Program-made: the position numbers and the translations under genes
The notes under the pieces: generated by a model
What the model saw: only the letters and a program-made list of their open reading frames with translations
Told to the model about the DNA's origin: nothing
Database searches by the model: none
Assembly (NCBI RefSeq): GCF_021028975.2
Contig: NC_059432.1
Location: 64,976,001-65,040,000, forward strand
DNA from: Sphaerodactylus townsendi
Taxonomy: Eukaryota
Reading direction: 5' to 3'
DNA: 64,000 nucleotides
Part shown: positions 43,901 through 46,900 of the stretch, in pieces
How positions within the stretch are numbered: the stretch's first letter is position 1
Layout of the letters: each line of letters opens with the position of its first letter

Positions 43901-46900
43901 CTTTGTTCCTAACGTTTTACCTTCATCTGTGGCTGGCATCTTCAGACGTGTATCACAGAGGGAAGTCTATCACACACTGTGTCCAGTGGAGTGATTGCTG
44001 AGTGATTCCAGTGGAGTGATTGCTGAACATAGCATCTCTCCCATAAGTGTTCTTTCTTTTCTCAGCAGGACTCAGAATGGGTAGTGGTGAAGGAGCCAAT
44101 CATTAAACTGGCTGCCATTGACAATGGCCTGGCTTTTCCCCTCAAGCATCCAGACTCTTGGCGAGCCTGTAAGTACTTCCAAGTGGATTTGTTAAAGGGT
44201 TTTCTGGCTTATGTTCAGTGTTCTCCAAGTGCTCACCATCTACTTTCTCCATTTGGAGTGCATAATTCTCAGGCCTTGAGGGCACAGGCTTGACGTATCT
44301 CCTCTATCTCAGAGCTTGTTAGCCTAGTGATTGGCTTGGCTTGTGGGTCTCTAACTTTGCTTTTTACCTTTCCTGAAGATCCTTTTTATTGGGCATGGCT
44401 GCCGCAGGCCAAGATGGCCTTCTCACAGGAGATCAAGGACTTGATCCTGCCAAAGATTTCTGACCCTAATTTTGTTAAAGATCTAGAAGAAGATCTATAT
44501 GAGCTTTTCAAGGTAAGCGCAGGCTGCTGGGCAAGAAAATGCCTGATTCTCCTTACTCTGCCCACGAGCAGACATTTGTGTCTATATTGCACATATTCCT
44601 CCCCACTGAGAGGGAGGAGATATAGGAGTGCAGCACCCACCCTAATTGGGTTTGTCCATCTCTTGCCTTGCTTTTATAGAAGGATCCTGGTTTTGACAGG
44701 GGCCAGTTTCACAAGCAGATTGGGTTGGGTCACAAGTGGCTGTGGTATGTTAATTTGTCTCACTGGAGGGGAGAATTCCTACCCAAGTGGATGTCAGGCT
44801 GTATTTCACACAGTCCTTAAACCTGTACTTGCAGCATAGTGCTTTATTGGTACTGTGTTTTCCTGTTCTTGTCGCAGATCCTGAACTTGACGCAGGCCTT
44901 GAAAGATGGGAAGAGTCCCCTTCATCTGGTCCAGATGCCCCCTGTCATTGTAGAAACTGCTCGCTCTCATCAGCGCTCAGCCAGTGAGTCCTACACACAA
45001 AGCTTCCAGAGCCGCAAACCTTTCTTTTCTTGGTGGTAGCAGTTGCCCTCTTCTTCATCGAGGAACTTGTGGGAGAGTGCGCCTTGACAGTGGGCAGCCG
45101 ATCCTCCAGACCAAGACAGCTGTGCTGCAGCCAGTGGGAGATGTATGCTGGAACTCCCATCAGCCTTGACTTGGAACATTCCCAGCAGGAGGGGAAGGGG
45201 TCTTCATTAGACTGATTGCTACTCCCTTCTCCCTGTGGGCTGGACATACCTCCTCCCCAATCTGGGCTTGGCAGCATCTCTGAGCAGGTGCCTGCATGCA
45301 GCACCGTTTGGCTCCTAGGTACTTCCTAAACTTTGCCTGGGAAATGTCAGGAGGCAAGGGGAGTATCTTTGTCGGATGGAAGTGCTATTGCTCTGTGTGC
45401 AACTGCCAGCCTTGATATCCATTCCTCCCTTACTGTACCTTCTTGCTTACCCTGCTCAAGAAGGCAGATGCCTCCTATCCAGCTAGTCCTGCTCAGCTAT
45501 CATTGGCCCCCTACAGGCCTGCTCCTAGTGCTTTGTGTATTGGTACTAGGCCACAGCCAGCTGCTATTCGAGGAATCCAGTGGGAGAGGGACAAGGGTTG
45601 GACCAGTGTCCTGTGACTGCTAACGCTGGGTGGACTACTTCCCAAATGTAAGGCCCCTTCCGCACACGCAAAATAATGCATTTTCAAACCACTTTCACAA
45701 CTGTTTGCAAGTGGATTTTGCTATTCCGCACAGCTTCAAAGAGCACTGAAAGCAGTTTGAAAGTGCATTATTCTGCATGTGTGGAAAGGCCTAAGATTTA
45801 CAATCTATAACTTGGAACTTGGCATTAAGGAAGTATGAGAAAAATTGTCATGTATGCTACATGAACCCTGACCTGAATAGCCCCAGGCTAGTCTGATCTC
45901 ATCAGATCTCTGAAGCTGAGCAGAGTTGGCCATGGTTAATATTTGGATAGGCAACCTCCAAGGAACACCAGGGCCATGAGTCAGAAACAGGCAACGGCAA
46001 GCTACCTCTGGACATCTCTTGCCCTGCAAATTGTACAGTGTTGTCATAAATCAGCTGTGGCTTGATGGCCCCCCAAAAAATAGTGCAACCTGAGCCGTTC
46101 TCCAGGCTAAGAGCTACGTGAGTTGGCGGATGGCTGCTGAGGCTAGAGGAAGGTTTCAAAATTTGCTCAGTGGAGTGATAAAATAGATTAAGTCAAAAAT
46201 ACAATTTTCGTTCATTATATTATTATTATTATTAAATTTTGTTTAATGTAATACTGTTATTATTATATTATGTCTTGTATGCCATCCTTCCCCAAGGGGC
46301 TCAGGGTAGCTTACACACAAGATATAAATAAGAAATTGAAATAAAAAATATTACAACCAAAGCAAGGAAGCAGTTAATTTTTTAAAAAAGAGGAAATATG
46401 TTTCATATATAAGGGAGAGATCAAGAGTATTATTAAATAGCAGTTGTTCTGCTAGGATTAAAAATGGTATTTGTAATTTTATATTTCTCAACATACTTTG
46501 GTTTATTGTTTGATGTGATGGTTGTAGTTTTCCCACTCCTTTTTTCAGTTTTAGTCTCCTTTGATAGGATACGTTCCATTATGTATGGCTAAGCAAAGTA
46601 GAAGCTACAGTGACCTGGCTGATGGGCTCCTCTTCTCCTTTAGTGTGGGAAGACTGCAAAAACCTTATAACCTGCCAGCACACACACACTGGATTGCCTG
46701 ATTCCCCCACCCCAGATATACTACTGGACTCTCTTGGATCTCCTCTGGTTTTAATTTACTGAATAAACTTTCTGTTCTCCTACAGACCGGGGTAATGACA
46801 ACTGGCTGATCAAGTATGATTGCCCACTGGATAGCACAAGCATGCGGGTGAGTGGGGCAGAAAACCCCTAGCTGCTCTGATAGTATAACTTTGAACCTCT

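What the first reader, a model, noticed from the sequence alone, without database searches (positions are those of the whole stretch)
45615..45650. Duplication junction recreates the empty ERV integration site, suggesting the provirus is heterozygous or unfixed
Seen: the left flank of the provirus is ...atGGGTGGAC|LTR and the right flank is LTR|GTGGACtacttcc. Copy B of the duplication starts at ...cTGGGTGGACtacttccc, which is exactly the pre-integration allele with a single GTGGAC, joined to the 3' UTR of copy A through a TGGG microhomology. Inference: the assembly concatenated an ERV-bearing haplotype (ERV plus copy A, error-rich) with the ERV-free haplotype (copy B, intact exons). The duplication would then be an artefact and the insertion polymorphic and recent. 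The alternative is a real duplication with one breakpoint exactly at the LTR end.
Basis: partly seen in the sequence, partly recalled or inferred. Interest (0 to 1): 0.75.

Follow-up and report, generated by a model that had tools for sequence, protein, structure and literature searches.

The report
Unfixed retrovirus behind a false duplication
A likely recent retrovirus insertion sits in an intron of the lipid-kinase gene PI4K2A, and one sampled animal shows both the filled and the empty site; the 3.9-kb gene duplication beside it is likely an assembly error, and the provirus, which has no reverse transcriptase or integrase, likely borrows them from a partner element that has the same end repeats but no protease.

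Summary
Observation confirmed. A 5.9-kb provirus (35811-41755, 6-bp target duplication) lies in a PI4K2A intron, followed by two copies of exons 5-9. The provirus and copy A look like one uncorrected long read. In 4 of 4 public runs, one contig carries copy B's letters at 7 of 7 A/B differences and runs on into B's downstream DNA; none crosses the A/B junction. Run X16 shows both the empty-site and the LTR junction, X18 only the empty site, so the insertion is unfixed. Not shown: that the assembled animal was heterozygous, or that B is the empty haplotype rather than the shared right flank (the diagnostic TGG also ends A). Unexpected: two gene-content types share this LTR and leader. 13 of 13 protease-bearing copies lack pol; 16 of 16 RT-bearing copies lack protease, and the two whose frame was scanned encode one in-frame Gag-RT-IN. 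They may complement each other, but 6 of 20 other RT loci hold both genes under diverged LTRs.

The parts
34988..35141 (+). PI4K2A exon upstream of the insertion (likely exon 4; number inferred from three exons seen upstream)
   Evidence: AG/GT ends and frame ...IIRNT; gene named from a downstream exon matching PDB 4hnd PI4K type 2-alpha, E 4e-24
35805..35810 (+). left target-site copy GTGGAC
   Evidence: the 1-kb left flank has one full-length match in G000
35811..36274 (+). 5' LTR; first 54 bases exact to clean family copies, the rest error-rich; primer-binding site follows
36275..41310 (+). provirus interior, same orientation as the host gene: gag (capsid 37146-37736), dUTPase (38091-38450), protease (38515-38811), env (SU 39730-40478, TM 40681-40945); no RT, RNase H or integrase; about 82% identical to family copies, indel-rich
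41311..41755 (+). 3' LTR, error-rich (79% to the 5' LTR)
41756..45629 (+). copy A: right target-site copy, intron, exons 5-9 and 570 bases of 3' UTR; exact blocks alternating with 84%-identity patches; likely the tail of one raw long read
45627..45635 (+). A/B junction: TGG shared by A's end and the empty-site flank, then GTGGAC; not bridged by any contig laid
45630..49534 (+). copy B: accurate right flank with intact PI4K2A exons 5-9 (first exon 46786-46847); begins where the two allele paths merge in run X16
45648..45790 (.). very high-copy short repeat 18 bases right of the target site (also at about 41770-41910 in A); ends approximate
   Evidence: summed contig depth in the millions at 41569-42062

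Best explanation
The provirus is a real insertion that is still segregating, and the tandem duplication beside it is likely an assembly artefact, made when one uncorrected long read from the provirus-bearing chromosome was likely placed in front of the accurate right-flank sequence. Shown: both alleles in one sample, only the empty site in another, no contig across the junction, and no A-specific letter in any run laid. Inferred: (1) 35865-45629 is one raw read of about 9.8 kb, partly polished where short reads mapped; (2) the assembled animal was heterozygous, so accurate sequence broke exactly at the target site, where the two allele paths merge, and the join used the TGGG overlap; (3) the provirus lacks pol and was mobilised in trans, most likely with RT and integrase from an element with the same LTR and leader that encodes an in-frame Gag-RT-IN without protease.
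For:: 4 of 4 runs have one contig over 45260-45610 with B's letters at 7 of 7 A/B differences (listed), continuing into B's downstream sequence (49512 on); no joint. X16: a 3970-bp contig with a left-flank loose end (depth 31.6), a 54-bp contig with an LTR-end loose end (21.2), and a 44-bp contig starting at 45630 (46). X18: empty site only (25.3 against 23.1). The contig lengths place their far ends at 31866 and 31901, at a repeat in the left flank. Error pattern: 2813 of 3944 A/B columns lie in exact runs up to 678 bases, the rest is 84.1% alike; uniform scatter gave at most 349 in 10,000 trials; 36 transitions, 32 transversions, 74 gaps, 45 of them homopolymer-adjacent. The window's provirus is 81.5-82.4% identical to 4 copies that are 90.7-97.5% identical to each other. 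Its first 54 bases are exact (p about 2e-4), as expected if flank-anchored short reads held this junction. B starts with no LTR letter. 7 of 19 fetched elements with two LTRs have zero LTR substitutions.
Against: Only contigs were available, so depth halving and read-pair discordance could not be measured, and contigs show presence, not absence. The runs are at most 3 samples of one study, and one may be the assembly's source. Only 351 of 3874 bases of A were tested letter by letter. The error bias differs: the provirus has excess bases (270 against 169 gaps) while A has missing bases (43 against 31 gaps), which is odd for one read. Nothing shows directly that the assembled animal held the empty allele. 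The helper is inferred: 6 of 20 other RT loci carry protease and RT together and could be the helpers.
Confidence: 0.78

Rival explanations
1. The duplication is false, but the assembled animal was not heterozygous (homozygous for the provirus, or long and short reads came from different animals). Accurate sequence broke at the repeat, and a gap-filling read overshot by 3.9 kb.
For: The TGG that looks like empty flank is also A's own end. A high-copy repeat 18 bases right of the site could break short-read contigs without heterozygosity. Other family copies are error-rich too (L013).
Against: B begins on the first base of the target duplication with no LTR letter, exactly where the alleles merge in the heterozygous run X16. 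A homozygote should leave accurate LTR letters there, as the left junction has 54.
Confidence: 0.15
2. A real tandem duplication of PI4K2A exons 5-9 with one breakpoint at the LTR end, private to the assembled animal or haplotype, with A decayed as a pseudogene.
For: The window has no N gap at the junction. Contigs can drop rare variants.
Against: No contig bridges the junction and 0 of 7 A letters appear in 4 of 4 runs. Exact runs of 400-680 bases beside 84% patches do not fit gradual decay. The provirus itself is error-rich while its family is young.
Confidence: 0.04
3. The provirus is an old, diverged insertion (LTRs 79% alike), and its divergence is real age.
For: LTR-LTR identity 79.1%.
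Against: The differences are indel-dominated with more transversions than transitions (13 ts, 22 tv, 34 gaps). The first 54 bases are exact to clean copies. X16's LTR-junction letters equal the LTR end of clean copies, not the window's version. The site still segregates.
Confidence: 0.03

Closest known systems
False duplications in vertebrate assemblies, heterotype and homotype (PMC9516828, passages read)
   Same: Adjacent copies of one genic region on one scaffold, one error-laden, with no read support across the junction.
   Different: A mixed case: likely triggered by a heterozygous 5.9-kb insertion (heterotype-like), while A and B differ by read errors (homotype-like). No N gap is left.
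Cattle ERVK[2-1-LTR] C and D types; also ETn/MusD and recKoRV/KoRV-A as cited there (PMC10924933, passages read)
   Same: Class II-like ERV with polymorphic insertions; defective copies keep LTRs and leader and are presumed mobilised in trans; the pol-less type looks more numerous here (1221 against 232 first-look candidates; rough).
   Different: There an autonomous type with all genes drives a gene-less type. Here neither same-LTR type examined is complete, and each holds genes the other lacks.
Mouse IAP I-delta-1 (PMC6466679, passages read)
   Same: A deletion creates an in-frame Gag-Pol fusion in a non-autonomous class II ERV.
   Different: I-delta-1 needs Gag and Pol from complete IAPs. 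The partner here keeps RT, RNase H and integrase domains and lacks protease.
Wheat Wilma/Sabrina/WHAM 'cooperative complex' (PMC9744471, passages read)
   Same: Semi-autonomous LTR elements contribute different proteins; Sabrina_SA encodes Gag-protease.
   Different: Plant Gypsy elements with an autonomous member (Wilma); no retroviral env.
Alpharetrovirus-like envelopes in reptiles (PMC13568524; gamma-type Env, PMC9967133; passages read)
   Same: The env TM's best solved relative is ASLV TM (E 1.6e-6), with an ISD-like stretch and CX6CC.
   Different: Gag's best named PDB hit is HERV-K Gag and a dUTPase precedes the protease, so the element looks like a beta-like core with an alpha-like env; no tree was built.

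Membership tests
False duplication (PMC9516828) | No read support across the junction between the copies | tested here: met
   0 of 4 runs bridge 45629/45630; all continue into B's downstream DNA; contigs only
False duplication (PMC9516828) | Half or very low read depth over a copy | not testable with these tools
   only contigs are held; depth is one figure per contig
False duplication (PMC9516828) | Discordant read pairs | not testable with these tools
   no raw reads among the runs found
False duplication, heterotype | Both copies carry genuine haplotype-specific letters | tested here: not met
   0 of 7 A-specific differences in 4 of 4 runs over 351 bases; fits the homotype (read-error) class for A against B
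Insertionally polymorphic ERV | Filled and empty alleles both exist | tested here: met
   X16 both junctions; X18 empty site
Insertionally polymorphic ERV | The assembled animal itself is heterozygous | tested here: inconclusive
   indirect only: B starts at the allele merge point; the source reads are not known
Class II (beta-like) ERV | TG...CA LTRs with a short target duplication | tested here: met
   6 bp here; 5, 5, 6, 5 bp in L011-L014
Class II (beta-like) ERV | Gag with p10 matrix, p24 capsid and zinc knuckles; dUTPase ahead of the protease | tested here: met
   Pfam on family copy L011; best named PDB hit ERVK-24 Gag; same modules in the window at about 82%
Class II (beta-like) ERV | RT groups with class II in a phylogeny | not tested
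   the window copy has no RT; the partner's RT has RVT_thumb and its best PDB hit is 7sr6 (recalled to be HERV-K RT); no tree built
Betaretrovirus proper (beta-type Env) | Beta-type TM without CX6CC | tested here: not met
   CX6CC in the window's TM frame, ASLV TM best hit, TLV_coat: gamma-type, alpha-like Env
Non-autonomous ERV mobilised in trans | Lacks an essential gene, keeps cis elements | tested here: met
   no RT/IN in 13 of 13; LTR, primer site and leader 97-100% alike between the types
Non-autonomous ERV mobilised in trans | An autonomous helper with the same LTR exists | tested here: inconclusive
   0 of 29 same-family copies examined is complete; elements with protease and RT have LTRs 70-76% alike; most copies were not examined
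Non-autonomous ERV mobilised in trans | Trans-mobilisation observed | not testable with these tools
   no expression or functional data

The most novel reading that the evidence does not exclude
A two-part endogenous retrovirus still spreading in a reptile germ line: one component carries Gag, dUTPase-protease and Env, the other an in-frame Gag-RT-RNase H-integrase without protease; both share LTR, primer site and leader, and each needs the other, with no complete parent left under that LTR. The heterozygous PI4K2A insertion would be a fresh product of that partnership.
Probability: 0.3. Interest if true: 0.75.

Novelty: new variant of a known kind. Interest (0 to 1): 0.45.

Why it matters
The locus should not be annotated as a PI4K2A duplication, and the 79% LTR identity must not be used to date this provirus. 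The site is a confirmed segregating ERV insertion, in sense orientation inside a conserved gene, in a non-mammalian vertebrate, so its effect on transcripts can be tested. If the two incomplete types really depend on each other, this is a division of retroviral genes between two genomes, whereas the ERV pairs in the papers read here all have an autonomous helper. That would bear on how segmented or cooperative genomes arise.

Tried and rejected
(34900-42300 on four runs) was swamped by the high-copy repeat beside the site and by family contigs; its tables were cut, and it showed neither provirus junction nor an empty-site joint, so it is not used for the junctions. X15 and X17 (sample S12) gave no contig at 45627-45660: a hole, no verdict. 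Dating the window's copy by LTR identity was rejected (errors dominate). Pol remnants in the 890 bases between pro and env: no tblastn or tblastx hit and one 37-base DNA match, so the origin of that stretch is unexplained. A protease hidden in the partner type: no hit in six frames, and no D[TS]G in the Gag-RT linker of the 2 copies read, though the linker has weak similarity to the pro frame (25-26%, E 6e-5 to 9e-5). A second copy of the left flank or of the 3' UTR elsewhere in G000: none. Literature: ten searches listed no description of this family or of mutually dependent ERV halves; two searches returned nothing. Repbase, Dfam, subscription papers and supplements were not seen and may hold the family. 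No RNA search was possible.

Full report
OBSERVATION. The window is G000:C8:64976001-65040000 of a 1.81-Gb animal assembly and has no N. A provirus runs from TG at 35811 to CA at 41755, flanked by GTGGAC at 35805-10 and 41756-61. Behind it lie copy A (41756-45629) and copy B (45630-49534), 95.2% alike. The junction reads TGG|GTGGAC, as the empty site would. The host gene is PI4K2A (an exon of B matches PDB 4hnd, E 4e-24). The insertion is in sense orientation, in the intron between the exon at 34988-35141 and the exon at 46786. Exon numbers are inferred.

A AND THE PROVIRUS LOOK LIKE ONE RAW READ. 2813 of 3944 A/B alignment columns lie in exact runs of 139-678 bases; the other 1131 are 84.1% alike. 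Scattering the 142 difference events uniformly gave a longest run of at most 349 in 10,000 trials. The differences are 68 substitutions (36 transitions, 32 transversions) and 74 gaps, 45 next to homopolymers. Two of five exons are broken in A, none in B. The provirus is 81.5-82.4% identical to four same-type copies that are 90.7-97.5% identical to each other, and its LTRs are 79% alike. Its first 54 bases are exact to two of the three copies profiled (p about 2e-4). Against a single read: the provirus has excess bases and A has missing bases.

INDEPENDENT RUNS. One search listed 18 runs, 4 holding half or more of the flank's words (3 samples, one study; contigs only); these four were laid. One search was swamped by repeats and is not used for the junctions. 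On 45260-45660, each of the 4 runs has one contig over A's 3' UTR, with B's letters at 7 of 7 A/B differences, leaving the window at 45610 into B's downstream sequence. None joins A to B. X16 (S13) has a 3970-bp contig whose loose end is the left flank (empty site, depth 31.6), a 54-bp contig whose loose end equals the LTR 3' end of clean copies (depth 21.2), and a 44-bp contig starting exactly at 45630 (depth 46; 3' UTR contig 44.1). This is the pattern of a heterozygote. X18 (S14, another organism label) shows the empty site alone, at depth 25.3 against 23.1. X15 and X17 (S12) gave nothing at the site. One run may be the assembly's source; I cannot say, so heterozygosity of the assembled animal stays inferred. 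It is favoured because B begins at the merge point with no LTR letter, while the left junction has accurate LTR letters.

MECHANISM OF THE ARTEFACT (inferred). Accurate sequence ended 54 bases into the LTR on the left and restarted at the target site on the right. A single long read of the filled allele bridged the provirus and ran 3.9 kb into the flank; it was joined to the right-hand sequence at the TGGG overlap instead of being merged with it. Polishing then repaired A in blocks. B is best read as the right flank common to both alleles. In the terms of PMC9516828 (passages read) the trigger is heterotype-like and the A/B differences homotype-like.

WHAT THE PROVIRUS IS. The LTR search gave 41 matches from 40 scored of 2640 candidates. 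Family copy L011 has Gag (p10, p24, zinc knuckles) and dUTPase plus protease, and an env whose TM is closest to ASLV TM with CX6CC. Gag's best named solved relative is ERVK-24 Gag. The 18 bases after the LTR fit a tRNA-Phe primer site (the tRNA assignment is recalled). Target duplications are 5 or 6 bases. So it works like a class II ERV with an alpha-like, gamma-type env, a kind of env reported as common in reptiles (PMC13568524, PMC9967133; passages read); it fails the beta-type Env test. That the host is a lizard comes from earlier scan notes and was not tested. 7 of 19 fetched elements with two LTRs have no LTR substitution, 5 also no gap; most others are indel-rich, as in this window.

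HOW A POL-LESS PROVIRUS MOVED. The window's type (P) has no RT, RNase H or integrase in 13 of 13 copies examined (window, L011-L014, and 8 of the 40 best protease hits). A second type (R) has the same LTR, primer site and leader: 97-100% over the first 1000 bases, then 73-87% in capsid and beyond. In the two copies whose frame was scanned it encodes one frame Gag-RT-RNase H-integrase of 1508 and 1596 residues with no protease or dUTPase family hit. No protease, dUTPase or env SU was found in 16 of 16 R copies (L015, 12 of the 40 best RT hits, and 3; LTR at least 90% alike in 15, 80% in one error-rich copy). First-look candidates number 1221 for the protease probe and 232 for the RT probe, so only a small part was examined. 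To look for complete helpers I fetched 20 of the 83 RT-thumb matches (chromosomal ones, roughly in list order): 6 of 20 have protease and RT together, with LTRs 70-76% alike to this family (one without an LTR hit); 4 have protease stubs; 10 have none. The simplest reading is that P supplies Gag and protease and R supplies RT and integrase in shared particles. That in-frame Gag-Pol needs Gag in trans and can be cut by a protease in trans is recalled retrovirology; one search found no paper for it. The rival is help from the complete sister elements. Known ERV pairs have an autonomous helper (PMC10924933, PMC6466679; passages read); the nearest cooperative case read is in wheat (PMC9744471, passages). 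An unexplained point: 3 of 4 chromosomal R copies tested lack an exact target duplication, which could mean mis-joined repeats.

VERDICT. The duplication is very likely false (about 0.95), the insertion is unfixed (shown), the assembled animal was probably heterozygous (about 0.8). These are known kinds of thing. The two-type family is the part worth following: mutual dependence about 0.3. Searches of papers (listings only, apart from the six papers named) and of earlier scan notes showed no description of it; repeat databases and supplements were not seen.

Noticed in passing
window 58990-61380: A 2.4-kb repeated element with 430-bp direct repeats only 84% alike and indel-rich; 79 matches in G000 from 40 scored of 1067 candidates. 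Probably another error-rich patch; not classified.
   Followed up: partly
L017:2186-8352 (about 2 kb past the window's right end): A related 6.2-kb LTR element on the minus strand; its LTRs are 96.9% alike, 74-77% to the window's family; gag, dUTPase remnant and env TM, no protease, RT or integrase hit.
   Followed up: partly
L058-L077: Protease loss recurs among RT-bearing relatives: 10 of 20 have no protease hit and 4 of 20 only stubs, under several LTR variants.
   Followed up: partly
small contigs such as G000:C1568, C1504, C486, C1301, C1321: Many short unplaced contigs hold two RT-thumb hits 5-6.6 kb apart: tandem arrays or circularised repeat artefacts of the RT-bearing type.
   Followed up: no
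L039, L041, L043: RT-type copies with 99.6-100% LTR pairs but no exact target duplication.
   Followed up: no
L056:673-3406: An 80%-identity, likely error-rich protease-type copy directly beside a clean one; may be the same kind of artefact as in this window.
   Followed up: no
L011:2981-3865 (about window 38830-39700): About 890 bases between pro and env with no match to pol or to the relatives fetched.
   Followed up: partly
window 45306 and 45488: Two substitutions private to run X18 (other organism label) in the PI4K2A 3' UTR.
   Followed up: no
window 45648-45790 and 41770-41910: Short, extremely high-copy repeat 18 bases from the insertion site; not classified.
   Followed up: no
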